From assembly GCF_000956175.1 (NCBI RefSeq), contig NZ_CP011070.1, forward strand, positions 1,078,147 through 1,110,146: a stretch of 32,000 nt of DNA. The letters run 5' to 3'. The stretch comes from Nitrosopumilus adriaticus. Lineage in GTDB: Archaea; Thermoproteota; Nitrososphaeria; Nitrososphaerales; Nitrosopumilaceae. Under the pieces are notes generated by a model. That model was not told where the DNA came from. It did no database searches and was given only the letters and a program-made list of their open reading frames with translations. A program made the position numbers and the translations under genes. This document shows, in pieces, positions 16,781 through 29,952 of this stretch (position 1 is the first letter of the stretch; the number at the start of each line of letters is the position of its first letter).

Positions 16781-16844
16781 TGAGGGAATTATTGTTTTTG
16801 GGATTAATAAGAAGGATGTTCGGTGCCGCCCCTTTTTCTAGTAT

Positions 16845-17727: not shown

Positions 17728-17754
17728 TTGATTCAGAAACTCATTTAATGAAAT

Positions 17755-17955
17755 TCAAGAATTTTTTGGTTTGATTGTAACCATTTTATCTGAACCTTTA
17801 CACAATTGATTTCCTTTGTGATGTTTGTGGATTTTGATTTTGTACGTTTTCCATTCTTCAGATCCTAAATCATCTTCGTATGTATGATTAATCGTTTTGA
17901 CCTTATGGCCATGTTTCCATTGTTGACACCATGCACAGAAGACTTTTTCATTCAT
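17755..17955 (-). CDS. small zinc-ribbon-like protein (single copy of the module duplicated in 13453..13896)
   Basis: 66 aa. CAWCQQW...IKIHKHHKGNQLCKGS has the same CxxC...HHK...C-x-G/S-S/G pattern. Confidence 0.5.
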   Translation of the reverse strand: MNEKVFCAWCQQWKHGHKVKTINHTYEDDLGSEEWKTYKIKIHKHHKGNQLCKGSDKMVTIKPKNS

Positions 17956-18162
17956 TTTGTAATGTCCTACTTTACTCTGCCAATTAATCTAAACACTGCC
18001 TTTTCTGAATGTAGAATTTGTTCTAGCAATTTTAATTTGTTCTTCTGAAAGATTTTCCCCATTGGTGTATTCTTCCATCAAATTCCCAGGATCATCTTAT
18101 TGTGCTGATTTTATTTTCTAGATCATTAATAAAATGAATATTTACAGATAATTCTATAGCAG

Positions 18163-18909
18163 TCATGATTTTGAATAATTTTGATTCCATTTTTTTGTCT
18201 GAGTTTTAAAAAATTCAATTGCCTTTTTGTTTTTGATTTTACCTTTTCTATACCACATTACATCTTCTGACATATTATAAGCACAATTTATGAAATGCCA
18301 TGTCGTATCCCATAATGTTTCAAAATAATCCGCATTTTTTCTAATTTTATGAGGGGTTTGAAGAGTGTGTACTAGAGTATTTCTCAATGAAAAGATCTCT
18401 TGAAATTTATCCCAATTATCAATAAGATGGATTTCACTTTCAGGAACTATATTGTTTTTTATTCCAAACCTTATCCAATCATGTAATGTATCAAAAAAAT
18501 TCAAACCCAATAGATTGGAAAATACTTTGTTTATTTCAGAAGAATTTTGAAAGTTAAAGTTTGCAGCTATAATTTTTCCCTTGGTAAAATCTTTCTTTTG
18601 AATTTCTTTAAAATATTTTATCGGAATAGGAATTTCAGAACCCTGAAACAATCGTTCAACATTTAGATCATAATCATCTACTAACCAAGCAATATTATTT
18701 TGTAGATATGATTCAACTATAGTCACCAATCTTATAATGATGTATTTTTTAAGTTGTTTTGAGATTTTTACATTTCGTTTATCTAATTCACGTATTACAT
18801 CTCGTAATTCATTATCCATTACATTTGATAATGTGGAATTTGGAATGAGTTTATCAAAATTTTTAATTTTATGAATATCTAACATTGGGTGTTTTCTAAG
18901 TTTTGTCAA
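18163..18909 (-). CDS. hypothetical protein with a HEPN-like R-x4-H motif (tentative)
   Basis: 248 aa. FSLRNTLVHTLQ fits the HEPN Rx4-6H signature within a helical context. It starts 5 nt downstream of 18915..19595 on the same strand. Confidence 0.4.
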   Translation of the reverse strand: MTKLRKHPMLDIHKIKNFDKLIPNSTLSNVMDNELRDVIRELDKRNVKISKQLKKYIIIRLVTIVESYLQNNIAWLVDDYDLNVERLFQGSEIPIPIKYFKEIQKKDFTKGKIIAANFNFQNSSEINKVFSNLLGLNFFDTLHDWIRFGIKNNIVPESEIHLIDNWDKFQEIFSLRNTLVHTLQTPHKIRKNADYFETLWDTTWHFINCAYNMSEDVMWYRKGKIKNKKAIEFFKTQTKKWNQNYSKS

Positions 18910-18914
18910 ATTGA

Positions 18915-19595
18915 TTATCCCTCAATTGGTTCTAACGGTTTTAAGTCCATTGAAGTCAAGCCTTTATCTATCATTTCCTTAATACCTCCAAAATGTTTAG
19001 TTAATGTCTCATCATTATAAAATGAAACAATTCCATTTAGGGAGAGAATTGCTTGGTCAGTAAGAGAGGACGAATATTGATTTGTAACATTTTGGATTTC
19101 CTTTAACCATGTATCTACCTGTTTTCGTTCATCTGCGATTCTTTTGTCATGATCAGATAGGCGTTCAGACTCGGGTGTAAGTAATAATTTTCTCAAGTCA
19201 TACATTGAAGAATATGCTAAGACACATGGGATGTGCATTGCATCCTGAGCTGCAAATTTCTTCTGAATTTTGTCATGTTCTTCTTTTTGCAAATACTTTT
19301 GTTGATAATCCTCAATTTTTTTCACCTCTTCAAGAATTTCAGTAATCCTATCTTGTTGCTCTTGTGATTTTTCTCTTTTACCTCCTTCATAGATTAAGAT
19401 AGCAGATGCAATAGCAAGGCCTATTCCTATTTCTACTACCAGGGTTGCCCAGTTTGCCACATCCCAACCATCTTTGACTGGAATTTGTAAAGAAAAAGAC
19501 AACACAGTCAAAGAAACTCCAATCCCGACTGCTATTCCAATGAATACCCATGAAATTTTTGCAGTAATTGGGTCCCTTTCCCTATTTTTCTTCAA
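18915..19595 (-). CDS. membrane protein with two N-terminal TM helices and a C-terminal coiled-coil/helical domain
   Basis: 226 aa. TM segments are ISWVFIGIAVGIGVSLTVLSF and ATLVVEIGIGLAIASAILIY, followed by a charged heptad-like region (EQQDRITEILEEVKKIEDYQQKYLQKEEHDKIQKKF). Confidence 0.55.
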   Translation of the reverse strand: MKKNRERDPITAKISWVFIGIAVGIGVSLTVLSFSLQIPVKDGWDVANWATLVVEIGIGLAIASAILIYEGGKREKSQEQQDRITEILEEVKKIEDYQQKYLQKEEHDKIQKKFAAQDAMHIPCVLAYSSMYDLRKLLLTPESERLSDHDKRIADERKQVDTWLKEIQNVTNQYSSSLTDQAILSLNGIVSFYNDETLTKHFGGIKEMIDKGLTSMDLKPLEPIEG

Positions 19596-19653
19596 TTTCT
19601 AATAATTTTACAAAATAACTAGTAATTATGATATTCGTACAATGTTATAATCT

Positions 19654-19850
19654 GTAACAAATAGCTACAAAAGCTAATTGTAGCTATTTGTAGCTCTTTT
19701 GTTACGAATGAAACGTTGTTTCAAACAGCTACAATTCATGCGTAATTAGCTACAAAAGCTGTTTTTAGCTATTTGTAGTGCGTGACAATCCAAAAACAGA
19801 GATATTTTATTACAGAATCAAATTAGTTACAAAAACTAATTGTAGCTAAA
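19654..19850. repeat. iteron-like array of the TAGCTACAA / TTGTAGCTA motif in both orientations
   Basis: Forward copies at 19662, 19727 (AGCTACAA), 19747 and 19824 (variant TAGTTACAA). Reverse copies at 19678, 19688 and 19840. TAGCTATTTGTAG lies at 19766. The hairpin-capable unit TAGCTACAA-N7-TTGTAGCTA (19662..19686) recurs at 19824..19848 with two mismatches. The outer inverted repeat is GTAACAAA (19654) / TTTGTTAC (19698). Confidence 0.8.
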
Positions 19851-19914
19851 TGTTCTGTTTTGAAACAAAATTAAGTAATTTTGGAATGAAATAACATAAA
19901 ATCATCTAATTTTA

Positions 19915-20068
19915 TAATTGTAAAATTTACAATCTGCTATTATTGATAGAATTTGTTTACGTCAAAAACTTACGTAAATCTTTACGCAGTAAAGTTGTAA
20001 ACTTTTTCAAATCAGTAAAATTTACAATATTTTACTAACAAATTTACACATTATTTACTAGTAAATAC
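19915..20068. repeat. dense TTTAC/GTAAA motif array, including a perfect 14-nt direct repeat GTAAAATTTACAAT
   Basis: GTAAAATTTACAAT at 19920..19933 and 20015..20028. There are more than 10 further TTTAC or GTAAA pentamers (GTTTACGTC, CTTACGTAAATCTTTACGCAGTAAAG, TTGTAAAC, TTTTACTAAC, AATTTACAC, TTATTTACTAGTAAATAC). The same pentamers occur in the casposon TIR (CGTTTACTCGTAAAT). Confidence 0.7.
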
Positions 20069-21853
20069 TCAAATTTGCTCTTTAGTAAAATGATTTAAAG
20101 AAATTGGCATGGAATTATTGTATTGTTTTTGATTAATATCATTAATTTTTCCTAACCATAATCTCTTTCTGTCTGCATTGAGATTTACTTTTTTTGTTAT
20201 AGTCATAATTTTCCCGATATCTTTGATATTATTTTGAATAATCCCCGAACGTAGTCTTGTGTTTCTTTTAATGGCAATTTTATAGAATAGTTTATCATCC
20301 TTCTCAAATGTTTCCAAGTGTTCGATCTCTTTAGAACCTAGTTTACCAAACCCTCTTTGTTTCCAAACACCATTGAATCGATAAAAACCATTTTGTAGGT
20401 AAAATGTATCATTTGCAGCTCCATCAAATGAAAATTCTCCTAGTTTCTTTGAATTAATGTTTAGTTTCTTTGTAACACAGATAGAATCCGTTGCAAATGC
20501 TATGGTTTGTTTCTCTAGATTGTTCTCTGTAATGAATCGGTATAGTTGTGCTCTAGTATGCCCTGTAATTGATGCAAAAATTACAGGATTGAATAAATTT
20601 CCGATTATTCTGTTTACTTTTTGCCCAGTTTTACCATAAATAGAATTGAGAATTATTTTGAATGGTTTTTCTAAAGGATTATTTTCATTTTTGAGTTTGA
20701 TGCGTTTTTCATAGAGGGATTCTATGAATTTGCAGTATGGTTTTATGGTGTTGTTAGGCACAAATTGATATCCTTCAAGAATCCTGTACTGAGAGTCATC
20801 TCTACAGGCTTGAAGTTCTGCTAACGTACAATATGTGATAAATTTCCCTGAAGGGAATAAAATATTCTGATTAGCCCTAAATGCAAAAGGTGGAATTATT
20901 TCATCATCTGGAATATCTGCTAAAATCTTGAAGAATCCTAGTTTGGCTTTTTCATGAATTGATTTTCTTTTTACCCATTTACCATTATCAAGATCAGGTA
21001 GTTGGGATATTGCATATGGATATGCAGAATTGATATCGTAAAGGTAAGATTTACCGACAAATCCTCGTTTTATCATCTCAAATCTTCCTCCAAAATAACT
21101 TCGAAAAGCTAAATCTTGAATAGAGTAAGGAATAGAGTCAAACTTTGGAAAGAATACATCATTATTGATTAGAACTTTTTCTGCTAGATATCCTGAACTT
21201 GGCCACTTTGCAGGATAAAATGAAAATGCATTATGGAATAAGGATATCCAATGTTCCGCCAGTTTCTTAGTTAGGATGCAATCTTGAATACAATAATTTC
21301 TAATTTTCTTCTTGTTATGACTGTAAAACCATTTAGAGAATTCTGCACGTTTTGTTTTTAGTGATAAATACTCTTCAGGTAAAGATTCTATATTTTCTTC
21401 ATATGCAGCAGCTAATGATTTACCAAAAAACTGAGCAATATCAAAAAACAATACACTATGATGTCCTTTTTTAATTCGAAGTAATTTTGATGGGATGTAT
21501 TCTAGTTTGAAATCATTCCAGTGAAATTCTAGTTTTCTACTCAAATTGTATCTGAACAGTTCTTGATCAAGAAGTTTGAGAATTACTTCAGCATCATATG
21601 CTAAATTGTAAAAGAAATTCCAAGTATTTTGATATTTTTTGGAGAATAGAAATTGTATTACCGATTCAGGAGTAATATTATCAAGAAATAATCCATCAGA
21701 ATCAGCAATCAGAAAAATATCTCCATGACGTGTTTCAGTATCTAATGCATTGATTTTCCGCAATTTTGAGTATGCAGAATTACGATTTTGAGGCCTTTTT
21801 GTGCGTAATCGGCCCAAATCTTTGTAATCTGTTACGGGGATGGATTCTGCCAT
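20069..21853 (-). CDS. polB: protein-primed-type family B DNA polymerase (pPolB), copy 2 (casposon)
   Basis: 594 aa. Exo I ALDTET, Exo II FYNLAYDAEV, Exo III YCIQDCIL, motif A YDINSAYPY, motif B LNSIYGKTGQ, motif C FATDSI. Long identical blocks are shared with 4887..6665 (TWNFFYNL, KKGHHS, FFDIAQF, YFGGRFEM, IGNLFNP). Confidence 0.9.
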   Translation of the reverse strand: MAESIPVTDYKDLGRLRTKRPQNRNSAYSKLRKINALDTETRHGDIFLIADSDGLFLDNITPESVIQFLFSKKYQNTWNFFYNLAYDAEVILKLLDQELFRYNLSRKLEFHWNDFKLEYIPSKLLRIKKGHHSVLFFDIAQFFGKSLAAAYEENIESLPEEYLSLKTKRAEFSKWFYSHNKKKIRNYCIQDCILTKKLAEHWISLFHNAFSFYPAKWPSSGYLAEKVLINNDVFFPKFDSIPYSIQDLAFRSYFGGRFEMIKRGFVGKSYLYDINSAYPYAISQLPDLDNGKWVKRKSIHEKAKLGFFKILADIPDDEIIPPFAFRANQNILFPSGKFITYCTLAELQACRDDSQYRILEGYQFVPNNTIKPYCKFIESLYEKRIKLKNENNPLEKPFKIILNSIYGKTGQKVNRIIGNLFNPVIFASITGHTRAQLYRFITENNLEKQTIAFATDSICVTKKLNINSKKLGEFSFDGAANDTFYLQNGFYRFNGVWKQRGFGKLGSKEIEHLETFEKDDKLFYKIAIKRNTRLRSGIIQNNIKDIGKIMTITKKVNLNADRKRLWLGKINDINQKQYNNSMPISLNHFTKEQI

Positions 21854-22155
21854 ATCACATCCGGTATTGATACTGATTTTCCTTTACGTCTCTGAGATAG
21901 TTCTGAGCGAATTTGTTTGTAGGATAAATTGGGAAAGTTATTTCTAATTTGTCTAATATAGTTGTGATATCGTCGGAGTTTTCCTGCTCTAGATTTGTTT
22001 TTGTTTTGTTTTTTCTTTTCTTTTTGTGGAATGTCTAATTTTTTTAGTTTAGATTTGATTTGTTTACGTAATTCTTTGACATGTTTATTGTTTGGAAATA
22101 ACTTTAATGCTTCTAGTTGTTGCAGTAACTTTTGTTTATCTTTCATAGTAATCAC
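21832..22155 (-). CDS. small, very basic protein overlapping the pPolB start (homologue of 4564..4908)
   Basis: 107 aa with KLLQQLEALKLFPNN, NFPNL and SIPDVIWQNPSP. It overlaps the pPolB ATG by 22 nt. Confidence 0.7.
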   Translation of the reverse strand: MITMKDKQKLLQQLEALKLFPNNKHVKELRKQIKSKLKKLDIPQKEKKKQNKNKSRAGKLRRYHNYIRQIRNNFPNLSYKQIRSELSQRRKGKSVSIPDVIWQNPSP

Positions 22156-22170
22156 AAAAAAAGAAAAGAG

Positions 22171-22500
22171 TTAGAAGACTAACTCAAATCTTCTAATTGG
22201 TCTTTGATTCTTTGATAGACCTAACCATGTCTTTAAGACAAATTCTTTACCCGGAGTAATTAATTTGTCAGTAATTCCTCGCCTCCAAAGTCTCAGGAGG
22301 GATTCATTTACTGAATCATGGGATTTCAAAGGAAGGATTACTTCATTCCATTCCTTGTCACTTTTTTGTAAAACTACGACATTTGTTGAAAAATCAGTGT
22401 CAAAGGTATCTAGTTCTTTTACCTTAAACTCTACAATGTCTGGTTTTGTTTTTTCATTGGATCTGAATGATCCATATTTTATGTAAGGGATTTCATCCAT
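22171..22500 (-). CDS. conserved pPolB-module protein (homologue of 4215..4544)
   Basis: 109 aa, with LPLKSHDSVNESLLRLW and RPIRRFELVF at the C-terminus. Confidence 0.7.
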   Translation of the reverse strand: MDEIPYIKYGSFRSNEKTKPDIVEFKVKELDTFDTDFSTNVVVLQKSDKEWNEVILPLKSHDSVNESLLRLWRRGITDKLITPGKEFVLKTWLGLSKNQRPIRRFELVF

Positions 22501-22559
22501 GATTAATGTATCATGTTAGAGTTGACATATTCCACCAACATTTTACTAGTCAAAATTAG

Positions 22560-23144
22560 GTGGTAAAGATTAGAATAAACATCAAAAAAGAAATCGTGAA
22601 AATAATTCATGAAAACGAGGGTATTGGCACAAATGAAAGTTTCACTTTATTTAAAAAAACTCATGGAAAGATACTATCCAATCCCACATATCTCAAAAAA
22701 ATTAGAGAGTTAAAAGAAGATAAAAAAATATACGAAATTAAAGATACCAAAGGTCACAAAATAAAACTTGTATCTTTAGCAAGAAAAAAGCAAATTGATG
22801 TTATTTTTAGAGACTATAATCGAGAGTTTAAAAATTTCAAATCTAGACTTGACATATATGATAAATTAAAGCCAAACCTCTTAGATGAACAAAAGATCTG
22901 TCTATTCGCTAATTTCTATACATGTTATTGGATAATGGTGTGGAAATTAAACGAAATTCCTGATTTTTTGGAAAAACCAGCCATAAAACAACTAAAACAA
23001 GATATGAAAGACTTTGAACCTGAATTATTCGTCTATTTTCTAGAAGCTGGAGATTACACTAGAATTACAAGATTAGGTGAAGACGAATTAACTGATCAGT
23101 ATTTTGAAACAATTAAAAAAATCGATCAGATTCTCTTAAAGTAA
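22560..23144 (+). CDS. hypothetical protein, possible wHTH regulator
   Basis: 194 aa with GTG start. It is divergent from the pPolB operon, positionally equivalent to 3321..3881. There is only weak sequence resemblance. Confidence 0.4.
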   Translation: MVKIRINIKKEIVKIIHENEGIGTNESFTLFKKTHGKILSNPTYLKKIRELKEDKKIYEIKDTKGHKIKLVSLARKKQIDVIFRDYNREFKNFKSRLDIYDKLKPNLLDEQKICLFANFYTCYWIMVWKLNEIPDFLEKPAIKQLKQDMKDFEPELFVYFLEAGDYTRITRLGEDELTDQYFETIKKIDQILLK

Positions 23145-23147
23145 ATC

Positions 23148-24224
23148 TTAATTCACTGTTTCAAAGAATTTTTGAGTATTTCGCCATTTGATGTTAGCAT
23201 TAATGTCTAAAACTTTACTGATGTTATTTTTTAATAATCCTGCAGTATTTTGAAATTTTTTCTTTCTTTTTTCAAATTTTACATCTTCAATATAATTATC
23301 TGCAGTAGAGGCCCAATCTACAACCCAAGCATTTTGCTCCAAAGTTTCTTTTGTTGGTATATCATATTTTTTATATCTACTTTCTAATTGAGATTTCGGC
23401 ATATTTTCAATTATCGAATGAGCACTTGGTGCAGCTGAAATTCCAATCCATTGTGGAATAGTATTGTATTCAACTGCTTCATCTATGGCCTTTCCAATAA
23501 TGAATTCATTTCCTTTGTAATAATAGTCTCCAAAAGAAATTGAACCACGAATCGGGCGTTCTAGAATCATACTATCAATTATTGCACTAGAGAGAATCGG
23601 AGATAATTCAAATAATGTTTTTTGTTTATTGTATGGTTGTATAGCAATTATTATTGTGTCAGAAAATGTCATGAATGAATAATCTCTAGTGTTTAATTTC
23701 TTGATTTCTTGTTCAAAATTTTTTGTATAAGTAGACCATGAGTTAATTATTTTGTTTTTCTCTTTTTCTCTATTCCATATTCCTTTAGTTCCTAATGCAT
23801 CTAAGAAGACCACAATTCCTGTTTGTTTTGGTACAGTTTCTGATTTTCTTTGTTGTCTTGCAAGTTTTTTTGATTCAAGAACTGTATTATAAAAATCTCT
23901 GAATTTTTTGTAATGGTCCATCAGGTATTTTGTATCAATATATTCTAGATTTTTTTTAAGAAGTTTTTTACCTAATTTTGTTGTCTGGTAATATCCTCGC
24001 TTAGGAACCGTCACAAGACCTGCATGCTCCAGATAATTCCTTGCCCAAAATGCACGATTTTTTAATTTTGTCTCTGGACCACTTTTTTTGCGTTGATTTC
24101 TTTGCTTTTCAGTAAGTTTGAATTGTTTTGCCAATTTTGTTTCTGCGTCAGAAACTGAGATTTCGTTATTTGATCCTATTTCCAACATAGGCCACATTAA
24201 TCGTTCAAAATCAATTTTTGCCAA
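23148..24224 (-). CDS. Mrr_N-type winged helix fused to a class III nucleotidyl-cyclase-like domain (tentative)
   Basis: 358 aa. The N-terminus (LMWPMLEIGS...AETKLAKQFKLTEKQRNQRKKSGPETKLKNRAFWARNYLEHAGLVTVPKRGYYQTTKLGKKLL) matches the Mrr N-terminal wHTH pattern. The C-terminal half has GIVVFLDALGTKG, SFMTFSDTIIIA and RGSISFGDYYYKGNEFIIGKAIDEAVEY, which resemble the metal-Asp strands and the G..(x)..A.R region of cyclase-homology domains. Confidence 0.4.
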   Translation of the reverse strand: MAKIDFERLMWPMLEIGSNNEISVSDAETKLAKQFKLTEKQRNQRKKSGPETKLKNRAFWARNYLEHAGLVTVPKRGYYQTTKLGKKLLKKNLEYIDTKYLMDHYKKFRDFYNTVLESKKLARQQRKSETVPKQTGIVVFLDALGTKGIWNREKEKNKIINSWSTYTKNFEQEIKKLNTRDYSFMTFSDTIIIAIQPYNKQKTLFELSPILSSAIIDSMILERPIRGSISFGDYYYKGNEFIIGKAIDEAVEYNTIPQWIGISAAPSAHSIIENMPKSQLESRYKKYDIPTKETLEQNAWVVDWASTADNYIEDVKFEKRKKKFQNTAGLLKNNISKVLDINANIKWRNTQKFFETVN

Positions 24225-24259
24225 TTTACAGCTACTTTCTATCAGAAATTAATAACATT

Positions 24260-24330
24260 TCACACCTGCAGGCATAAAGATACATCAAAAAAGTAAACTT
24301 CCTGCTCAATGAGCGATCACACCTTGCAGG
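24260..24330. promoter_or_regulatory. pair of direct repeats TCACACCT(T)GCAGG in the divergent promoter region
   Basis: TCACACCTGCAGG at 24260..24272 and TCACACCTTGCAGG at 24317..24330, between 23148..24224(-) and the methyltransferase (+). The first contains the 8-bp palindrome CCTGCAGG. Confidence 0.45.
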
Positions 24331-24357
24331 ATATACCTATCTTGAAATTATCAAACC

Positions 24358-25200
24358 TTGGCATTAATTGAAAAAGCAAAATCACTAGTTCATCCTAGAA
24401 ACACCCTCAATGATTTGCCCACTGTTGATTGGCTAAAAGCAACTCGTTCATGGTTTATGATGAGGCCAAAAGGGAGAGGTTCAAAAATATCTCATCCTGC
24501 AAGTTTTCCTGAAGAATTAGTTGCAAATTATATTCAATTTTTCACAAAAAAGAATGCACTCGTGCTAGACACCTTCCTAGGTTCAGGAACTACCACTCTA
24601 GTTGCAAGACAGCTGCAGCGAAATGCAGTGGGTATTGAATTAAACAAAAAATATGCTGAATTATCCCAAGAGAGATTAAATGAATTCCCAGAAAATAACA
24701 CAAAACAACTAGTGATTAATGATGATTCTAGAAATTTAAAAAAAATATTCAAAAAACAAGGAATCCCCCAAATTGATTTTTGTATTACATCTCCTCCATA
24801 TTGGAACCAATTAAAAAACAAGGGACTCAAAAATACTGTAGATAGATCAAAGAGTAGAAAAAAATTAAATCTTGATGTCGACTATGGTTCTAATTCAAAA
24901 GACATTGGAATGATTGATGAGTATGATTCGTTTTTAGATGCACAAGATGAAATTTTTGACAAGGTCTATGATCTGATGAAGCCACGAGGGTATTTGCTTG
25001 TAGTTACAAATAATGTCTACAAGGGCGGTAGAATGTGGCCATTAGCATTTGATACGGTAACTAGACTATCAAAGAAATGGGTTCCAAAAGATGAGCAAAT
25101 TTGGTGTCAAGACAGCAGACGATTACATCCATTTGGAATGTTTCATAGTTACATTGGAAACAGAGCACATCACTATTGTTTGATATTTCGAAAGGAGTAA
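24358..25200 (+). CDS. DNA methyltransferase, N4-cytosine/N6-adenine family (PF01555-like)
   Basis: 280 aa. HPASFPEEL, SAM motif LDTFLGSGTT..A..L.RNAVGIEL, catalytic ITSPPYW. Motif I precedes motif IV. The track start is TTG, so the real start is uncertain. Confidence 0.8.
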   Translation: MALIEKAKSLVHPRNTLNDLPTVDWLKATRSWFMMRPKGRGSKISHPASFPEELVANYIQFFTKKNALVLDTFLGSGTTTLVARQLQRNAVGIELNKKYAELSQERLNEFPENNTKQLVINDDSRNLKKIFKKQGIPQIDFCITSPPYWNQLKNKGLKNTVDRSKSRKKLNLDVDYGSNSKDIGMIDEYDSFLDAQDEIFDKVYDLMKPRGYLLVVTNNVYKGGRMWPLAFDTVTRLSKKWVPKDEQIWCQDSRRLHPFGMFHSYIGNRAHHYCLIFRKE

Positions 25201-25243
25201 TACATTCAACAAAATTGATTAAGATCATAAGAGAATATGCACT

Positions 25244-25576
25244 ATGAGTTCCGTTTTACAAATAAATCAGTTTGAATCAAAATTTCAATCTTGTCGAAAT
25301 CATATAAACGGGGAAGGTGGAGAAAAAATCTCTGAACAATACAGAGGCTATGTTTGGAATGATGTAACCCCTGAACCCCATCTGTCAATAGGATTGCCTT
25401 TTGGTCCTGTGGGTTACAATTACTGTGATAGTGGAAGATATATCTATTTGAAAAAAGTGAAAAACCTTCCAGATTCTTCTCCAGATAACGCAAATAGAAT
25501 TCGGGGCAGGATTTTACATGACAGTGTTATGGATTTTTTGATATTTCAAGAAGATATATCGAAAATACTGAAGTAA
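25244..25576 (+). CDS. possible N-terminal fragment of a Cas4-like nuclease (see 25621..26244)
   Basis: 110 aa. YCDSGRYIYLKK...RIRGRILHDSV resembles the Cas4/RecB-family N-terminal Cys...R..Y and G..(I/L)H helix. The downstream ORF's frame is already open from 25522, overlapping this ORF. Confidence 0.4.
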   Translation: MSSVLQINQFESKFQSCRNHINGEGGEKISEQYRGYVWNDVTPEPHLSIGLPFGPVGYNYCDSGRYIYLKKVKNLPDSSPDNANRIRGRILHDSVMDFLIFQEDISKILK

Positions 25577-25620
25577 AAAGTTTAGATGTAAAAAAACATC
25601 TGAATAGAAAAAAAACCAAA

Positions 25621-26244
25621 ATGCTACAAGATATTAAAAAAGAAATATCTAAACCTTCCAATAAATTAAAACAAAAAGAAATCAAAGAAATCCTGAAAGA
25701 TTGTGATTCAGTTCTAGAATTTGAGAGTAATCAATTATCCTCTAGAATTCATTATTTTATTTCTAGAAATGAATCTATCACAAAATCTTCATTGATTCAA
25801 CATTCTGTACCGATAGTTTTGAATGAAGAAATAAAAGAAGCAAAGGCAATGGGATTTGCAGACAAAATAACACCTGATTTTGTTTTTCATAAAGAAAAAG
25901 CAATTGGAGATATGAAAACATATCAATTTGATCAAAAAGATCAATCTTACAAATTAGCAATTACTGGATATGCTCTAGCATATGAAAAACAACACAATGA
26001 AGACATAGATTGTGGATTTATTCTGTATTGTTTACCTCACAAGAATCGGTTTACTCCTTTATTTGAATTAGAAGTATTTCCTATTAGCGATGTTTTACGA
26101 AAAAATTTTATCGAAAAAAGAAATCGACTTGCACAAATGGTATACAAAAAAATTAAACCAAATCTAGCTACTAAATGCCCCGAATCCTGTCCCTATCTTT
26201 CGAAATGCGCTCCTGGAAAAAGTAGAATTGACAAAAATAAATAA
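25621..26244 (+). CDS. Cas4-like PD-(D/E)xK nuclease with a C-terminal Cys cluster
   Basis: 207 aa. Core is PDFVF...AIGDMKT (D...DxK), then YKLAITGYALAYE (Q/Y helix), and a C-terminal CPESCPYLSKC resembling the three-Cys Fe-S ligand motif of Cas4/AddB-type nucleases. Confidence 0.6.
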   Translation: MLQDIKKEISKPSNKLKQKEIKEILKDCDSVLEFESNQLSSRIHYFISRNESITKSSLIQHSVPIVLNEEIKEAKAMGFADKITPDFVFHKEKAIGDMKTYQFDQKDQSYKLAITGYALAYEKQHNEDIDCGFILYCLPHKNRFTPLFELEVFPISDVLRKNFIEKRNRLAQMVYKKIKPNLATKCPESCPYLSKCAPGKSRIDKNK

Positions 26245-27064
26245 AGAATTATTGGATTTTAAGGGTTCTCCAAAAATCATTTTGGAATCATTACAAATTT
26301 TTCAAAAACATCCTAAACAATGGGAAAAAATTCAACAAGAATTAATTCAAATGGCAATTAAAAAAGAAATCAAAGCAATTCCCAGAGTAATTATATCTGC
26401 ATATATTACTCCGATGTTAAGAAATTTGAAATTAATTTATGGTGAAGGCACAGATATTAAAATCACAAATGATGGAACTCAATGCATAGAAGCATTTTTA
26501 AAAAATTCTGAAGAAGGTTATAAAAAAAGACTTGCATATCAAACTATCAAAATTGATGAAGAAAATATCCGATTAATCCCTTATTTAATGAGGCACCACA
26601 ATAAGATTGAAAATTCTGTATCTCTAAATGATTTGAAAGATGAATTGTTCTCTATAGGTGTTCCAAATGCAAAAAAACCTACTCCTGTTGGCAGTTGGAT
26701 TCAACTCCTTACCTTTGTTGAATTGGTGTTTATGTATAATAAAAAATTCTATGTTCGTGAATCGCAGTATGAAACTATGCTCAAAGGAGAAAATAAACCA
26801 AAAAAATCAGATATTGAAAAAGCCTTCAAAAATGCTGCAAATGTACTGAAATCACCCAATACATCTTATGTGTCAATTCCTGAATTCAGAGATCAAGTTT
26901 GTGAAGAATTAAGGATAAGTTCTTTTACATTTTATAATATTCTCAAAAATAATCCTTATAGTATTGGGAAAACCCGATTAATGTTCGCAACTCCAATCAA
27001 GAAGACGCCTGGAGGAATTATAATTGGAAACAAATACTATTATTTTATATCAGTATATCCTTAG
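26228..27064 (+). CDS. hypothetical protein
   Basis: 278 aa with TTG start, overlapping the end of the nuclease gene. Operon position is between the nuclease and the ATPase. No motif recognised. Confidence 0.45.
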   Translation: MTKINKELLDFKGSPKIILESLQIFQKHPKQWEKIQQELIQMAIKKEIKAIPRVIISAYITPMLRNLKLIYGEGTDIKITNDGTQCIEAFLKNSEEGYKKRLAYQTIKIDEENIRLIPYLMRHHNKIENSVSLNDLKDELFSIGVPNAKKPTPVGSWIQLLTFVELVFMYNKKFYVRESQYETMLKGENKPKKSDIEKAFKNAANVLKSPNTSYVSIPEFRDQVCEELRISSFTFYNILKNNPYSIGKTRLMFATPIKKTPGGIIIGNKYYYFISVYP

Positions 27065-27074
27065 TACAATAGAT

Positions 27075-28202
27075 ATGTCTTATTCAAAATTTAATCTAAC
27101 TTCAAATCCTTTCCTTGAAGAAAAACATACTTTTCCAATGGTTGGACGAAAAAAAGATTGGGATAAGATAAAAAATGTGACCGAAGAGTTGCTTACTGCA
27201 GATAGTTGTGGAATTATCACAATTTATGGAGATTATGGAATGGGTAAAACATTCACTTTATTAAAAATGCAAGAAGAATATCAAAAAAATAAAGATTCTG
27301 GTAAAGTTATTTTCTTGAAAACAATTGAAACTGGAATTCCTACAAATTTTTTGAGTGATTTGTTGATTCGAATTACTAGAAATATTGGGAAAGATGAAAT
27401 GGTCAAATTAGCAAAACGTGTTGATTTTGTTTCATTAGATATTGATAATACATTGAAAAATGTTCTGATAAATTTATCTGATGGAAACGAAATTTCTTGG
27501 AAGTGGTTTATTGGAAGAAGTATTACCAACACAGAATTAAAACAAATTCAGGCTGAATTTAAAATCAAAGACAATTATGAAACATTTACCGTTTTCTTAG
27601 ATTTCCTAAAATTCCTCTATGTAGCAGGATGTCAAAATATGATTCTGTTGTTTGATGAATGGGAATATCTACTTTCAAGAGCATCCATTGATCAAGTTAG
27701 AACTATTGTGCGGGATTTACAGAAATTATGGGACGGATATAATGAATGTCGAGCTTCAAATATGAAATTATGTAAAATAATTTTTGTTATTGCATCATCC
27801 ATTGGATCTTGGAGAATCTTCTTAGAGATGATTGATAAAGATGTCAGTAAAAAAGGAGGCGGAGGTACAGAAACTTTTATGAGAAGAATTCCGGAAATGG
27901 CAAAGATTAACTTATCCCCCTTTGCTCTTTCAGACGTAAAAAAATTCATTATTAATAGATTGAAAGAATATCGTTTAAAACCATCAAGTGATGATTTGTT
28001 TCCGCTTACTAATGATTATGTTCAGTTTATCACCGAAATATCCTGGGGAATCCCAAGTAGTATTCTTAGCAAAAGTGCATTAATTATAAAAGAAGCTTCT
28101 GATGGAGAAATTAAACAAGTCACTACTGATTTTTCAAAACAAATTCTGAAAAATCATGGAATTCTACGAGAGTTGGAAGAAGTGGGACCTATTGCAGAAT
28201 AA
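27075..28202 (+). CDS. AAA+/P-loop ATPase (ORC/Cdc6- or archaeal-ATPase-like)
   Basis: Walker A IYGDYGMGKTFTL, Walker B MILLFDEWEY, N-terminal NPF segment. I prefer the ATG at 27075 (MSYSKFNLTSNPF), just after the upstream stop. The track ORF starts at TTG 27024. Confidence 0.7.
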   Translation: MSYSKFNLTSNPFLEEKHTFPMVGRKKDWDKIKNVTEELLTADSCGIITIYGDYGMGKTFTLLKMQEEYQKNKDSGKVIFLKTIETGIPTNFLSDLLIRITRNIGKDEMVKLAKRVDFVSLDIDNTLKNVLINLSDGNEISWKWFIGRSITNTELKQIQAEFKIKDNYETFTVFLDFLKFLYVAGCQNMILLFDEWEYLLSRASIDQVRTIVRDLQKLWDGYNECRASNMKLCKIIFVIASSIGSWRIFLEMIDKDVSKKGGGGTETFMRRIPEMAKINLSPFALSDVKKFIINRLKEYRLKPSSDDLFPLTNDYVQFITEISWGIPSSILSKSALIIKEASDGEIKQVTTDFSKQILKNHGILRELEEVGPIAE

Positions 28203-28213
28203 CAAATTGAATT

Positions 28214-28591
28214 ATGAGTTTTTACATATGTACAGGTAAATCATTAAGAGTTTTTATCAACATCGAAAACTTTCTTAGTGATTCCATTAAATTAAAATTT
28301 TTTTTAATTTTTAAAGAATCAATTAATAAAAAATCATTTAAACTTGATGTTAATTTATCTCCTAATGATGATGGCTTAACATTAACAAAGACCATAATCA
28401 TAAAAGAGCAATTTGAAAATTTCAAAAAAAATGAATCGCTAGGAGTGATCAAAATTAGATCTTCCAAAATCAATAAGGATTTTAATTTGCCTGAAGCTAT
28501 CTGTGTATCACCTGAGGAATCTTCTGATTCGTATCTAGGAGCAAAGGTTACGCTAACGAATAACAATGTTTATGTTCAGTATCGAAAATAA
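28214..28591 (+). CDS. hypothetical small protein (last gene of the plus-strand operon)
   Basis: 125 aa, with an ATG 12 nt after the ATPase stop. The strand choice over antisense ORF 28222..28566 rests only on operon context. Confidence 0.35.
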   Translation: MSFYICTGKSLRVFINIENFLSDSIKLKFFLIFKESINKKSFKLDVNLSPNDDGLTLTKTIIIKEQFENFKKNESLGVIKIRSSKINKDFNLPEAICVSPEESSDSYLGAKVTLTNNNVYVQYRK

Positions 28592-29631
28592 TGGTCAATA
28601 ATTGTCACAATAAAATTTTTCACAATCGTTAATTCTTCTAAATTATTCAATCCAGTTTTCTTTGATCTACCAAACTTAAATTCTACTTCTTTTTTAATTT
28701 GAAAATTCCTCTCCAATTTCTCCAAAAAATTCTTTTTTACTCTATCTGATAGAACTACCATCCCATCCCGAGTATAAACAAAATCAGATAACCTCATCTT
28801 GTATCGATTATTGGTTGCATGTGCAATATCATAAACTGAAGATTCTACTACCCAACGAAATGGTTCTATTACATCATACACTAGTGACATAAATCCCGAA
28901 TGATTCTTGTGCATATATCCAAAGTATGGGTCTAGGCCAAATCCACAGACATACTTGCAAATCTCTCCTGCAAGTACGGAATATCCATAATTTAGCAAAC
29001 CATTGATGGGGTCTGATGCATTTCTCTTTGTTATACGAATAGAGGATTGATTACGAGATTCGAATCCAAATCTCTCATTAAACAGAGTGGCATAATATCG
29101 AAAGTACACATTTGCACTTGATTTCTCTATGGATTCATAATTCTGAATAGTAATTTCAGATATTTTCTTTTGTAATGTTTGAATTATTTTCTCAGAATCT
29201 TTTCTTTCTAATGATTTCAGAAATCTAATCTGAGATTCCAATTTGTCATGAATTGTTTTTCTTGATAACTCTCTACAAACTTCAGGTTTTCGGAAATTAT
29301 CATATTGTGCAATTCTATACTTACTAGCAGTGCTACTCTCCATCACTCCATTGATCAAAGAGATGGGCTTTCCGAAACTATCTGTAATGATGACATTTCT
29401 ATAATGACTAGAAAGTAGTGCTAATGCATCTGTACTAACATAACCTTTTCCTGAAATCAAAATTTTCTCATATGGTAAATTTGTGATAAACCATTCTTCA
29501 GTTTCTTGGGAATGAGAAAAAGGATCAAGGCCATTCTTTAGTATCAGTTTGTGATTTTTTACACTAACTGAAACTCCATAGCCTGTTAAGACCTTGATGT
29601 TATAGTGGTTTTTTCTTCCTCTTAGGGTCAT
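28576..29631 (-). CDS. cas1: Cas1-family integrase (casposase)
   Basis: 351 aa. Cas1 catalytic-domain motifs NGLLNYGYSVLAGEI, GLDPYFGYMHKNH and LVYDVIEPFRW. The N-terminal beta-rich domain is VLTGYGVSVSVKNHKLILKNG. It is a large ORF close to the right TIR, and no CRISPR array or cas2 is nearby. Confidence 0.9.
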   Translation of the reverse strand: MTLRGRKNHYNIKVLTGYGVSVSVKNHKLILKNGLDPFSHSQETEEWFITNLPYEKILISGKGYVSTDALALLSSHYRNVIITDSFGKPISLINGVMESSTASKYRIAQYDNFRKPEVCRELSRKTIHDKLESQIRFLKSLERKDSEKIIQTLQKKISEITIQNYESIEKSSANVYFRYYATLFNERFGFESRNQSSIRITKRNASDPINGLLNYGYSVLAGEICKYVCGFGLDPYFGYMHKNHSGFMSLVYDVIEPFRWVVESSVYDIAHATNNRYKMRLSDFVYTRDGMVVLSDRVKKNFLEKLERNFQIKKEVEFKFGRSKKTGLNNLEELTIVKNFIVTIIDHYFRY

Positions 29632-29890
29632 CTTTAGGAAATAAACCCATTTTCAACTCCAAGGCAGCAGTGTATTTGCTGTATGCGGACAATGCTTTGC
29701 TCATATTGTCTGCCATTCTTACTACAATCTTTACTAGATCAAGTGTGTAATCAGATGATTCTATTGAATCCATAGTTTTAGGATCTTTTGTAGTTGTTAG
29801 TTTGTCATGTTCTGCAAAAGATTCATTGACTTTGGCATTTGCATCCTCAACTGCCTCTCTGAGTTTTTCAAGTTTGGTTTTTCTTGTCAT
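29600..29890 (-). CDS. hypothetical helical protein upstream of and overlapping cas1
   Basis: 96 aa, charged and helical (KLEKLREAVEDANAKVNESFAEHDK). The 32-nt overlap with the cas1 start suggests co-translation. Confidence 0.45.
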   Translation of the reverse strand: MTRKTKLEKLREAVEDANAKVNESFAEHDKLTTTKDPKTMDSIESSDYTLDLVKIVVRMADNMSKALSAYSKYTAALELKMGLFPKDDPKRKKKPL

Positions 29891-29952
29891 TAAGAAACCA
29901 TGATGAACATTATGATCTTAAAGAATTTGCAAAAAATAATAATCTGAAAAAC

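What the first reader, a model, noticed from the sequence alone, without database searches (positions are those of the whole stretch)
23148..24224. Unusual fusion: Mrr_N-type winged helix + nucleotidyl-cyclase-like domain
Seen: the first ~90 aa follow the pattern of the N-terminal wHTH domain of Mrr restriction proteins (FKLTEKQRNQR...SGPETKLKNRAFWARNYLEHAGLV...PKRGYYQTTKLGKKLL). The remainder has three segments arranged like a class III cyclase / GGDEF-type palm: VVFLDALGTKG, MTFSDTIIIA and RGSISFGDYYY-GNEFIIGKAIDEAVEY. Inference: a DNA-sensing wHTH coupled to a nucleotide-second-messenger synthase would resemble the sensor half of CBASS/Pycsar-like signalling. No obvious cNMP-binding effector is adjacent, so either the effector lies elsewhere or the domain does something else. 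I do not know a described system with this architecture.
Basis: inference. Interest (0 to 1): 0.7.

Follow-up and report, generated by a model that had tools for sequence, protein, structure and literature searches.

The report
DNA-binding domain fused to cyclase-fold enzyme
A gene carried as cargo on a self-replicating transposon (casposon) of a marine archaeon fuses a restriction-enzyme-type DNA-binding domain to a very divergent nucleotide-cyclase-fold enzyme; the enzyme belongs to a large, uncharacterised family found in anti-virus gene clusters, so it is a good candidate for a new kind of DNA-triggered immune enzyme.

Summary
Window 23148-24224 (-) is a real 358-aa gene, identical to Ca. 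Nitrosopumilus adriaticus NF5 WP_048116358.1 (arCOG11981, "uncharacterized"). It is cargo of casposon NitNF5-C2.

- **N-terminal domain:** residues 6-90 are a full-length Mrr_N winged helix (E=1.7e-21).
- **C-terminal domain:** residues ~133-302 match nothing by sequence in Pfam, NCBIfam, PADLOC or PDB. The AlphaFold models are confident (pLDDT 94 and 92.5). By Foldseek they match only class III adenylyl/guanylyl/uridylyl cyclase catalytic domains (top 50 hits, E down to 2e-6).
- **Active site:** both proposed metal-binding Asp residues (D142, D189) are 99-100% conserved in 75 dereplicated relatives, along with R226 and K292. The canonical Asn/Arg pair is replaced by D248 and a variable position 252 that is never Arg (E252 in this protein). 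A conserved 55-aa helical extension is added.
- **Family:** about 6,600 sequence clusters, mostly stand-alone proteins of ~240 aa. Fusions to Mrr_N, to tyrosine-recombinase-like domains and to a receiver domain also occur.
- **Context:** the closest Mrr_N-fused relatives sit in DISARM operons. Other members are in casposons, in phages, or in a bacterial two-gene module.
- **Missing piece:** no cyclic-nucleotide receptor is ever adjacent.

The fold is well supported. The signalling role remains unproven.

The parts
23148..24224 (-). Whole gene: 358-aa Mrr_N + cyclase-fold protein (WP_048116358.1, arCOG11981)
   Evidence: ORF list; identical database protein; published annotation as 'Uncharacterized protein' in casposon NitNF5-C2
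23955..24209 (-). Mrr_N winged-helix DNA-binding domain (aa 6-90)
   Evidence: Pfam PF14338, E=1.7e-21, full profile coverage; PADLOC mREase_IV model matches only its first 117 positions
23847..23933 (-). Helical linker (aa 98-126), a long helix leading directly into strand beta1 of the enzyme domain
   Evidence: DSSP of the AF2 model: H98-104, H106-126, pLDDT >95; weak coiled-coil-type match to the EB3 dimerisation helix, E=0.0035. A role as dimerising/signalling helix is inference
23319..23828 (-). Cyclase-homology-type palm core (aa 133-302): beta1-alpha1-beta2-beta3-alpha2-beta4-beta5-alpha4-beta6-alpha5-beta7-beta8
   Evidence: AF2 pLDDT 94.3 / 92.5, pTM 0.90 for the domain alone; Foldseek against PDB returns only class III cyclases in the top 50, E 1.8e-6 to 1.5e-4, TM (target-normalised) up to 0.68
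23799..23801 (-). Codon of Asp142 (FLDALGTKG), proposed first metal-binding Asp at the end of beta1
   Evidence: 74/74 conserved; codon checked; equivalence to the cyclase metal Asp is inferred from secondary-structure order. The only hhalign segment pairs VVFLDALGTKG with ILFSDIVGFT but is not significant
23658..23660 (-). Codon of Asp189 (FSDT), proposed second metal-binding Asp in the beta2-beta3 hairpin
   Evidence: 75/75 conserved, flanked by S188 (74/75) and T190 (73/75); codon checked
23547..23549 (-). Codon of Arg226 (RG....G on beta4), same R-to-G(+6) spacing as the phosphate-binding Arg of 'RxGxHxG' in cyclases
   Evidence: 75/75 conserved with G227 and G232; mapping is inference
23478..23483 (-). 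Codons of Asp248-Glu249 on helix alpha4 (G244+4, +5), where class III cyclases have the ribose-binding Asn
   Evidence: D 70/75, E 72/75. Position G244+8, which is Arg in cyclases, is E/A/Q here and never Arg
23349..23351 (-). Codon of Lys292 (DIPxK, beta7-beta8), the position of the phosphate-binding Lys of cyclases
   Evidence: 67/75 K; mapping is inference
23154..23312 (-). Family-specific three-helix C-terminal extension (aa 305-357) with invariant K346, N349, T350, F353
   Evidence: DSSP H305-319, H327-337, H341-357; K346 64/64, N349 61/64, T350 61/63 where present; no counterpart in the cyclase hits (query-normalised TM only ~0.5)
24358..25200 (+). Divergently transcribed N6/N4 DNA methyltransferase, 134 nt upstream of the gene
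   Evidence: Pfam N6_N4_Mtase 3e-29; PADLOC MTase_II 1.3e-37
16894..30008 (.). Casposon NitNF5-C2 carrying the gene: pPolB 20069-21853(-), Cas1 casposase 28576-29631(-), split Csa1/Cas4 25244-26244(+), inserted at the 3' end of ef-2 (30001-31923, -)
   Evidence: Pfam DNA_pol_B_2 1.6e-23, Cas_Cas1 2.3e-47, Csa1 1.2e-28; EF-2 domains; element coordinates 1095040-1108154 in CP011070 from the PMC6563490 supplement, with offset 1078146 fixed by exact gene coordinates

Best explanation
The gene encodes a single-chain sensor-enzyme. It consists of an Mrr_N winged helix (DNA binding), a long connecting helix, and a highly divergent member of the nucleotide-cyclase (class III cyclase/GGDEF) palm superfamily. 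The palm keeps an intact two-Asp, two-metal NTP site. It is a mobile defence-type cargo gene of casposon NitNF5-C2. Proposed mechanism: the Mrr_N domain binds DNA, probably foreign or modified DNA as in Mrr-type Type IV restriction proteins. Binding is transmitted through the helix to the palm domain, probably by bringing two copies together as in all class III cyclases. The palm domain then uses NTP in a nucleotidyl-transfer reaction that yields a cyclic or short linear nucleotide plus pyrophosphate. The outcome is either a second messenger read by an unidentified receptor (in relatives possibly the co-operonic DISARM machinery) or direct NTP consumption. In effect it is an Mrr-type protein whose PD-(D/E)xK nuclease has been replaced by a cyclase-fold enzyme. 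What is shown: the two domains, the fold, the invariant acidic, Arg and Lys residues, family size, fusions and genomic contexts. What is inferred: the DNA ligand, dimerisation, NTP as substrate, the product, and the defence role.
For: - **Domains and fold:** Mrr_N E=1.7e-21. AF2 pLDDT 94.3, and 92.5 with pTM 0.90 for the domain alone.
- **Structural matches:** all top 50 Foldseek PDB hits are class III cyclase catalytic domains, E down to 1.8e-6. They include sGC 3uvj, CyaC 1wc1, Rv1625c 7yz9 (TMt 0.67), Rv1900c 1ybu (0.68) and uridylate cyclase 8jsz. Viral-library hits are also guanylate cyclase/GGDEF proteins.
- **Conserved residues in 75 dereplicated relatives:** D142 74/74, D189 75/75, R226 75/75, K147 68/74, K292 67/75.
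- **Sensor-output architectures:** the same enzyme domain is fused to Mrr_N (11 groups), to tyrosine-recombinase-like domains (P0111, P0126, P0130, P0136, P0145) and to a response-regulator receiver (P0042).
- **DISARM context:** 4 of 11 Mrr_N-fused groups, the clade closest to the window protein (40-42% identity), lie in or next to DISARM cores. By PADLOC these are DrmA E=0, DrmB 7.5e-199, DrmC 8e-51 and DrmMII 1e-118 to 4e-125. None of 49 well-flanked unfused groups does (Fisher p=7e-4). In L039 the gene overlaps drmC by 17 nt. An 80%-identical gene pair sits beside DISARM cores whose DrmB proteins are only 27% identical.
- **Other mobile contexts:** four casposon contexts, phage genomes / phrog_23933, and a Dnd/GmrSD island.
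Against: - No cNMP-binding, CARF, SAVED, TIR or membrane effector was found in the window or among 101 neighbour proteins of relatives.
- There is no sequence-level link to real cyclases. Pfam gives no hit at E<=10 for any of 63 members. A PDB profile search finds nothing. hhalign probability is 0.5%.
- The alpha4 Asn/Arg pair needed for cyclase catalysis is replaced by Asp248 and by E/A/Q at position 252. The base-specifying Lys position is variable. The chemistry may therefore differ from cyclisation.
- The window copy has no DISARM genes nearby.
- Residue equivalences rest on secondary-structure order. No residue-level structural superposition was available, because neither the Foldseek alignments nor the model coordinates are returned by the tools.
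- There are no biochemical data.
Confidence: 0.4

Rival explanations
1. It is the restriction (DNA-attacking) partner of the adjacent methyltransferase: a restriction-modification pair in which the cyclase-fold domain acts on DNA itself, as a new nuclease or DNA-modifying nucleotidyltransferase fold, with Mrr_N providing DNA binding.
For: - A divergent N6/N4 DNA MTase lies 134 nt away.
- MTases of four different families are the immediate neighbour in 6 of 92 dereplicated groups and lie within two genes in 8. These are D12 in L005, C5 in L001/L002/L041, N6_N4 in the window and L027, and phrog_56 MTases in phage contigs L126-L128.
- The architecture mirrors Mrr (Mrr_N + nuclease).
- The conserved extra acidic pair D248-E249 could serve hydrolysis.
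- The domain is also fused to, or adjacent to, DNA-processing enzymes: tyrosine recombinases and Cas1.
Against: - No nuclease with this fold is known to me, and all structural neighbours are NTP-cyclising enzymes.
- Most family members are stand-alone ~240-aa proteins without a DNA-binding domain.
- Only about 10% of loci have an MTase nearby, a level expected for defence islands and mobile elements.
- A receiver-domain fusion (P0042) fits a signalling enzyme better than a nuclease.
- In DISARM loci the C5 MTase is the system's own DrmMII.
Confidence: 0.15
2. It is a nucleotidyltransferase with a non-cyclase chemistry and a macromolecular or small-molecule acceptor, for example NMPylation of a protein or a nucleic-acid end, or template-independent oligonucleotide synthesis. 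It would act as a toxin or effector rather than a messenger synthase.
For: - The metal-binding Asp pair, R226 and K292 are retained, but the Asn/Arg pair specific to the cyclisation transition state is lost. New invariant residues appear (D248, E249, K346, N349, T350).
- A tightly coupled upstream partner gene in about 20 bacterial or phage groups, with gene overlaps of 1-28 nt, resembles toxin-antitoxin or enzyme-substrate pairs.
- Absence of any receptor gene.
Against: No positive evidence points to any particular acceptor. The structural neighbours are all cyclases. The partner protein has no known function (PF21648 / PDB 3fy6) and is absent from archaeal loci.
Confidence: 0.2
3. It serves the mobile element rather than host defence. 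It would be a regulator or accessory factor of casposon (or other integrative-element) transposition or replication, for example nucleotide signalling that controls Cas1/pPolB activity.
For: - The gene lies inside casposon NitNF5-C2.
- Relatives occur with Cas1 homologues in three further loci. In N. ureiphilus (L006) the stand-alone gene overlaps the cas1 start by 4 nt.
- There are five clusters of tyrosine-recombinase fusions.
Against: - The gene is not among the genes conserved in family 1 casposons; the published comparison lists it as element-specific cargo of unknown function.
- Most relatives are not in casposons.
- The closest relatives are in DISARM operons.
- Casposons commonly carry defence-type cargo such as OLD, HEPN and R-M genes.
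Confidence: 0.1
4. It is a DNA-binding transcription regulator whose cyclase-like domain is a catalytically dead ligand-binding or oligomerisation module.
For: Winged-helix N-terminus; loss of the canonical Asn/Arg pair; no effector partner.
Against: About twenty polar or glycine positions around the predicted active site are 90-100% conserved. This holds across archaea, bacteria and phages at only ~30% overall identity, and includes both metal Asp residues. That is the pattern of an active enzyme. Most members have no DNA-binding domain at all.
Confidence: 0.05

Closest known systems
Class III nucleotidyl cyclase catalytic domains (Pfam PF00211; e.g. Rv1625c 7yz9, CyaC 1wc1, soluble guanylate cyclase 3uvj)
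   Same: Same palm topology (beta1-alpha1-beta2-beta3-alpha2-beta4-beta5-alpha4-beta6-alpha5-beta7-beta8). An Asp sits at the end of beta1 and another in the beta2-beta3 hairpin. An Arg on beta4 has the same spacing to Gly, and a Lys lies in beta7-beta8. A sensor domain and a long helix precede the catalytic domain.
   Different: No detectable sequence similarity. The alpha4 Asn/Arg pair is replaced by Asp248 and a never-Arg position 252. There is no conserved base-specifying residue. A 55-aa three-helix C-terminal extension with invariant K346/N349/T350 is added. Dimerisation and activity are unknown.
Pycsar (PycC cytidylate/uridylate cyclase + cNMP-binding effector)
   Same: A class III cyclase-fold enzyme used in anti-virus defence. 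A uridylate cyclase structure (8jsz) is among the hits (E=1.1e-4, TMq 0.52). Both occur in defence islands.
   Different: No adjacent effector with a cyclic-nucleotide-binding domain fused to TIR or TM. No PADLOC Pycsar model matches. A DNA-binding domain is fused directly to the enzyme.
Mrr-type Type IV restriction endonucleases (Mrr_N + Mrr_cat)
   Same: Full-length Mrr_N domain at the N-terminus. Location next to R-M-type and DISARM genes.
   Different: The PD-(D/E)xK Mrr_cat nuclease domain is absent and is replaced by the cyclase-fold domain.
DISARM class 2 (DrmA, DrmB, DrmC, DrmE, DrmMII)
   Same: The closest relatives of the window protein are encoded directly after drmC, in the same orientation, or next to drmMII, in four diverged DISARM loci.
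   Different: The protein matches no PADLOC DISARM component model. It is not a described DISARM component in the literature I could search. The window copy has no drmABC nearby.
GGDEF diguanylate cyclases / Cas10-type palm domains
   Same: Same fold superfamily. GGDEF proteins appear among weaker hits in the viral structure library. Receiver-domain fusions (P0042) are typical of GGDEF proteins and cyclases.
   Different: The hairpin motif is F-S-D-T, not GG(D/E)EF or GGDD. No GGDEF or Cas10 structure is in the top 50 PDB hits.

Membership tests
Mrr_N domain (PF14338) | Match to the Pfam profile above the gathering score over the whole domain | tested here: met
   76.6 bits against a cut-off of 29.5, E=1.7e-21, profile positions 1-86 of 87
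Mrr-type Type IV restriction endonuclease | C-terminal PD-(D/E)xK Mrr_cat nuclease domain | tested here: not met
   Only Mrr_N is found in Pfam at E<=0.1. The PADLOC mREase_IV model aligns only over its first 117 of 317 positions. The C-terminus folds as a cyclase-type palm
Class III nucleotidyl cyclase (PF00211) | Cyclase-homology palm fold | tested here: met
   All top 50 Foldseek PDB hits are class III cyclase domains, probability 1.00, E 1.8e-6 to 1.5e-4, target-normalised TM 0.57-0.68 for isolated domains
Class III nucleotidyl cyclase (PF00211) | Two metal-binding Asp residues (end of beta1; beta2-beta3 hairpin) | tested here: met
   D142 74/74 and D189 75/75 at those structural positions. 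The positional equivalence is inferred from secondary-structure order
Class III nucleotidyl cyclase (PF00211) | Transition-state Asn and Arg on helix alpha4 (G-x-x-x-N-x-x-x-R) | tested here: not met
   G244+4 is Asp in 70/75 (Asn in 2). G244+8 is E/A/Q/S/V and never Arg
Class III nucleotidyl cyclase (PF00211) | Conserved base-specifying pair (Lys/Asp for ATP, Glu/Cys for GTP) | tested here: inconclusive
   The position four residues before D189, which holds Lys in adenylyl cyclases, is variable (K 12, L 10, A 7 ...). The second position could not be mapped without a superposition
Class III nucleotidyl cyclase (PF00211) | Sequence match to the family profile | tested here: not met
   No Pfam hit at E<=10 for 63 members. 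hhalign against seven canonical domains gives probability 0.5%. The PDB profile search finds no cyclase
Class III nucleotidyl cyclase (PF00211) | Head-to-tail dimer forming the active site; NTP cyclising activity | not testable with these tools
   Only monomer prediction is available, and no coordinates are returned. This needs AF-multimer and biochemistry
Pycsar | Adjacent effector gene with a cyclic-nucleotide-binding domain fused to TIR or transmembrane helices | tested here: not met
   None in the window ORFs scanned. None among 101 proteins within two genes of relatives. No PADLOC Pycsar hit
CBASS | CD-NTase (Pol-beta-type nucleotidyltransferase) plus Cap effector | tested here: not met
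   The fold is a cyclase-type palm, not CD-NTase. No PADLOC CBASS model matched
GGDEF diguanylate cyclase | GG(D/E)EF hairpin motif and match to PF00990 | tested here: not met
   The hairpin is F-S-D-T. No Pfam hit. No GGDEF structure in the top 50
DISARM | Encoded with drmA (helicase), drmB (DUF1998/MZB) and drmC (PLD) | tested here: not met
   For the window gene no Helicase_C, MZB or PLD ORF was found in the 32 kb. The feature is met for relatives L001, L002, L039/40/44 and L041/42
Type II restriction-modification pair | Adjacent DNA methyltransferase plus an endonuclease of a known nuclease fold | tested here: inconclusive
   An MTase is present 134 nt away. No known nuclease fold is present in the protein. 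MTase adjacency is seen in only 6-8 of 92 groups
Family 1 casposon cargo | Located between the element ends together with Cas1 casposase and protein-primed PolB | tested here: met
   Cas1 2.3e-47 and DNA_pol_B_2 1.6e-23 flank the gene. Published element coordinates map to window 16894-30008

The most novel reading that the evidence does not exclude
The protein defines a new class of single-chain immune sensor-enzyme. It would be a Type IV-restriction-like DNA reader (Mrr_N) that switches on a cyclase-fold nucleotide synthase instead of a nuclease. In this reading it serves as a sixth, previously unrecognised component of archaeal DISARM systems, and it spreads independently on casposons. The wider family (~6,600 clusters, arCOG11981 / phrog_23933) would be an unrecognised branch of nucleotide-based immune signalling, or of NTP-depletion defence, with an unknown product and an unknown receptor.
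Probability: 0.25. Interest if true: 0.85.

Novelty: new variant of a known kind. Interest (0 to 1): 0.68.

Why it matters
Nucleotide-second-messenger immunity (type III CRISPR, CBASS, Pycsar, Thoeris) is a central theme in prokaryotic defence. In all described systems of this kind that I know of, a synthase is paired with a recognisable receptor-effector. Here a cyclase-fold enzyme is wired directly to a restriction-type DNA-binding domain, and no receptor is in sight. It belongs to a family of thousands of clusters that no domain database annotates.

If the enzyme is active, three things follow:
- It would link DNA (or DNA-modification) sensing to nucleotide chemistry in one polypeptide.
- It would add a missing functional component to DISARM. 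To my knowledge DISARM's killing step is still unclear.
- It would show that casposons ferry such modules between ammonia-oxidising archaea.

The altered active site (Asp/Glu in place of Asn/Arg, plus a new Lys/Asn helix) also suggests a product or chemistry not yet seen in this fold.

Tried and rejected
1. **Sequence searches of the C-terminal domain.** Pfam, NCBIfam, PADLOC and PDB searches, by single sequence and by 63-sequence profile, gave no meaningful hit. The only PDB 'hit' is the coiled-coil of EB3 on the linker helix.
2. **Profile-profile comparison.** hhalign against seven canonical cyclase domains, taken from PDB alignments, found no significant similarity either locally (probability 0.5%) or globally. 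Residue equivalences therefore rest on structure only.
4. **Metallo-beta-lactamase neighbour.** A ~467-aa protein with faint Anti-Pycsar Apyc1 and RMMBL marks sits next to the gene in L041/42 and L043. It looked like a possible nucleotide-degrading partner. However, the two MBL proteins are near-identical orthologues (677 bits), whereas the adjacent Mrr_N-cyclase genes are only ~32% identical. The orientation differs between the loci, and the MBL gene is absent from all other loci. I treat it as a shared insertion hot spot, not a partner.
5. **Conserved partner of the bacterial stand-alone enzymes.** A profile of this partner finds nothing in archaeal loci or in the window.
6. **Strict R-M pairing.** Rejected as a general rule, because an MTase is adjacent in only 6-8 of 92 groups.
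7. **Bacterial promoter/terminator scan.** Uninformative for an archaeon.
8. **Literature.** Searches for the architecture, for arCOG11981, and for cyclase links to DISARM or casposons found nothing relevant.
Full report
**1. The observation**

Window 23148-24224 (minus strand) is a 358-aa ORF with a TTG start. Its product is 100% identical to a Nitrosopumilus adriaticus protein annotated only as 'winged helix-turn-helix domain-containing protein' (P0001). Gene coordinates in the supplement of Krupovic et al. 2019 (PMC6563490) match the window with a constant offset of 1,078,146. The gene is NADRNF5_RS06530 / WP_048116358.1, arCOG11981, 'Uncharacterized protein'.

Pfam finds a complete Mrr_N domain at residues 6-90 (E=1.7e-21). 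The PADLOC 'Type IV methyl-directed restriction enzyme' model aligns only over this N-terminal part.

**2. What the C-terminal domain is**

Sequence methods see nothing:
- No Pfam, NCBIfam, PADLOC or PDB sequence hit for the protein.
- No PDB hit for a 63-sequence family profile.
- No Pfam hit, even at E<=10, for any of 63 members.
- No signal in hhalign against seven canonical cyclase domains (probability 0.5%).

Structure prediction is confident. With a 99-sequence alignment the model has pLDDT 94.3. The domain alone gives pLDDT 92.5 and pTM 0.90.

Foldseek against the PDB returns only class III nucleotidyl cyclase catalytic domains in the top 50 for both models. There are 51 hits at E<=1e-3 for the full-length model and 73 for the domain. 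The best E is 1.8e-6, and target-normalised TM reaches 0.68. Hits include soluble guanylate cyclase, GC-A, soluble and membrane adenylyl cyclases, CyaC, Rv1625c, Rv1900c and a uridylate cyclase. The viral structure library likewise returns guanylate-cyclase and GGDEF proteins.

The order of secondary-structure elements (beta1-alpha1-beta2-beta3-alpha2-beta4-beta5-alpha4-beta6-alpha5-beta7-beta8) is that of the cyclase-homology domain. It is followed by a family-specific three-helix extension at aa 305-357.

**3. Active-site conservation**

I examined 75 dereplicated relatives from archaea, bacteria and phages, at about 30% overall identity.

| Residue(s) | Conservation | Proposed position |
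|---|---|---|
| D142 | 74/74 | metal Asp, end of beta1 |
| S188-D189-T190 | 74, 75 and 73 of 75 | D189 = metal Asp, beta2-beta3 hairpin |
| R226-G227 and G232 | 75/75 | phosphate-binding Arg on beta4 |
| G244 | 75/75 | start of alpha4 |
| K147 | 68/74 | loop after beta1 |
| K292 | 67/75 | phosphate-binding Lys, beta7-beta8 |

By position these correspond to the two metal-binding Asp residues, the beta4 Arg and the beta7-beta8 Lys of class III cyclases. This mapping is inferred from secondary-structure order and motif spacing.

Two defining cyclase features are not met. On helix alpha4 the G+4 position, which is Asn in cyclases, is Asp248 in 70/75. The G+8 position, which is Arg in cyclases, is E/A/Q and never Arg. 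The position of the adenine-specifying Lys is variable. In their place the family has invariant D248-E249, and K346, N349 and T350 on the extra C-terminal helices.

The domain is therefore a new, very divergent family within the nucleotide-cyclase palm superfamily. It is not a member of PF00211. The pattern is that of an active two-metal NTP-using enzyme whose exact reaction may differ from canonical cyclisation.

**4. The family**

An exhaustive profile search of 1.84 billion cluster representatives finds 6,608 proteins at E<=1e-3, 2,567 at <=1e-10 and 429 at <=1e-30. Most are stand-alone proteins of about 240 aa. Other architectures are:
- Mrr_N + domain, as in the window protein.
- Tyrosine-recombinase-like domain + domain (P0111, P0126, P0130, P0136, P0145).
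- Receiver domain + domain (P0042).
- Mrr_N + domain + a C-terminal extension (P0176).

Hosts include Nitrososphaeria, Bathyarchaeota and many bacterial phyla. There are also five viral contigs, and PHROGs has the family as phrog_23933, 'unknown function'.

**5. Genomic context**

The window gene lies inside casposon NitNF5-C2 (window ~16894-30008). This element is inserted in tandem with NitNF5-C1 at the 3' end of ef-2. Within the element the gene sits between the pPolB module and Cas1. A DNA N6/N4 methyltransferase is transcribed divergently 134 nt away. None of the window ORFs scanned carries a cyclic-nucleotide-binding, CARF, SAVED or TIR domain.

I analysed 129 loci, which form 92 dereplicated groups.

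- **DISARM.** Of 11 Mrr_N-fused groups, four lie in or beside DISARM cores. This is the clade closest to the window protein, at 40-48% mutual identity. The cores were verified with PADLOC: DrmA E=0, DrmB 7.5e-199, DrmC 8.2e-51, DrmMII 1e-118 to 4e-125. In L039/L040/L044 the gene follows drmC with a 17-nt overlap. None of 49 well-flanked unfused groups has DrmA or DrmB (Fisher p=7e-4). L002 and L041 carry 80%-identical copies next to DISARM cores whose DrmB proteins are only 27% identical, which argues for repeated, non-accidental association.
- **Casposons.** Three further groups contain a Cas1 homologue in the locus. In N. ureiphilus the stand-alone gene overlaps cas1 by 4 nt.
- **Bacterial and phage two-gene module.** About 20 groups have a tightly overlapping upstream partner. 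Its C-terminal half resembles an integron-cassette protein of unknown function (PF21648, PDB 3fy6).
- **STAND ATPase.** Three Bathyarchaeota groups have a convergent large STAND-type ATPase.
- **Methyltransferases.** MTases of four families are immediate neighbours in 6 groups and lie within two genes in 8.
- **Receptors.** No known nucleotide-receptor domain occurs among 101 neighbour proteins.

**6. Interpretation**

The best-supported reading (confidence about 0.4) has five steps:
1. Mrr_N binds DNA.
2. The long helix couples binding to the palm domain, probably through dimerisation as in all class III cyclases.
3. The palm domain consumes NTP in a nucleotidyl-transfer reaction.
4. The product signals to an unknown receptor, or NTP consumption is itself the effect.
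5. The gene acts as a defence or addiction module, carried here as casposon cargo and, in relatives, as an extra gene of DISARM operons.

The domains, the fold, the conservation and the contexts are shown. The ligand, dimerisation, substrate, product and phenotype are inferred.

The rivals are a DNA-acting restriction partner of the adjacent MTase (0.15), a non-cyclase nucleotidyltransferase or toxin (0.2), a casposon or integrase accessory factor (0.1) and a catalytically dead regulator (0.05). The pattern of invariant polar residues argues against the last.

**7. Comparison with known systems and novelty**

The protein works most like a sensor-coupled class III cyclase, and Pycsar PycC is the closest defence analogue. 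It fails the sequence, Asn/Arg and effector-partner criteria of those families. It shares only the N-terminal domain with Mrr. It is not a described DISARM component. I found no paper describing the architecture or the family, although only the open-access library could be searched. The one publication covering this gene lists it as uncharacterised. I rate it a new variant of a known kind. The fold assignment is strong and the function is open.

Noticed in passing
window 25244-25576 (+) and 25621-26244 (+): The 'two Cas4 homologues' reported for casposon NitNF5-C2 look like two halves of one gene. The 110-aa ORF matches Csa1 profile positions 19-88. The 207-aa ORF matches positions 114-290. 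They are 44 nt apart and in different frames, which suggests a split or frameshifted Csa1-type gene.
   Followed up: partly
window 26228-27064 (+) and 27024-28202 (+): Further casposon cargo. A 278-aa protein with no database hits overlaps a 392-aa P-loop ATPase with AAA_22 and BrxC/BrxD-like matches. This may be a separate two-gene defence module.
   Followed up: no
window 1-16887: Most of the tandem casposon NitNF5-C1 lies here: a second pPolB (4887-6665), an OLD-family ATPase/TOPRIM nuclease (7469-9679, -), HNH (9760-10662), NERD (11864-12574), a pentapeptide-repeat protein (13985-15328, -) and a tyrosine integrase (15608-16780, -). This agrees with PMC6563490.
   Followed up: partly
window 22560-23144 (+): A 194-aa ORF converges on the target gene; its stop codon lies 3 nt from the target's stop codon. 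The literature supplement calls it NMD3 (arCOG04149). Pfam gives only a weak TFA2 winged-helix hit, E=0.02. It is not conserved next to relatives.
   Followed up: partly
L022, L024, L026, L028, L033, L083, L085, L086, L092, L093, L095, L096, L125 and others: Bacterial and phage stand-alone cyclase-fold genes have a conserved upstream partner of ~220 aa, with gene overlaps of 1-28 nt. The N-terminal half is His-rich (P.HH.YM..NRG, FY.H.H). The C-terminal half resembles an integron cassette protein (PF21648 / PDB 3fy6). Its function is unknown.
   Followed up: partly
P0111, P0126, P0130, P0136, P0145 (proteins); P0042: There is a recurrent fusion of the cyclase-fold domain to an N-terminal tyrosine-recombinase (Phage_integrase) region that matches only part of the Pfam profile, and one fusion to a response-regulator receiver domain.
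   Followed up: partly
L002 8001-9086 vs L041 7001-8080: 80%-identical Mrr_N-cyclase genes sit next to DISARM cores whose DrmB proteins are only 27% identical and whose C5 MTases are 37% identical. This implies the gene has moved between diverged DISARM loci.
   Followed up: yes
L049 6396-8490: A stand-alone cyclase-fold gene lies 95 nt downstream of a 418-aa protein with an Mrr-catalytic-like region (PADLOC mREase_IV / PDC-S02). A Cas1 homologue is 1.3 kb away.
   Followed up: no
L124 9935-10744; L126 4976-5743; L127 9905-10804; L128 2110-2877: These are phage-borne copies (phrog_23933). One sits just upstream of the small and large terminase and portal genes. In L126 the copy lies between a tape-measure gene and two DNA methyltransferase genes; L127 and L128 also have the two methyltransferase genes directly downstream.
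   Followed up: partly
L041 8301-9704 (-), L043 5552-6958 (+): Near-identical ~467-aa metallo-beta-lactamase-fold proteins (faint Anti-Pycsar Apyc1 / RMMBL marks) lie next to two Mrr_N-cyclase genes that are only ~32% identical. This is probably a shared insertion hot spot, but a nucleotide-degrading partner is not excluded.
   Followed up: partly
L041 9773-14656: Downstream of the DISARM + Mrr_N-cyclase block there is an AAA_5 (McrB-like) 951-aa protein, a 539-aa protein and a solo 113-aa Mrr_N protein. This may be a Type IV McrBC-like system with a detached Mrr_N reader.
   Followed up: no
L007 8748-11612 (-), L014 6729-10091 (-), L053-L059, L063, L064: In Bathyarchaeota-type loci the stand-alone cyclase-fold gene is followed at 3-24 nt by a convergent 950-1,120-aa STAND-type ATPase (AAA_16/ATPase_2/TPR; weak PADLOC PDC-S27).
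   Followed up: no
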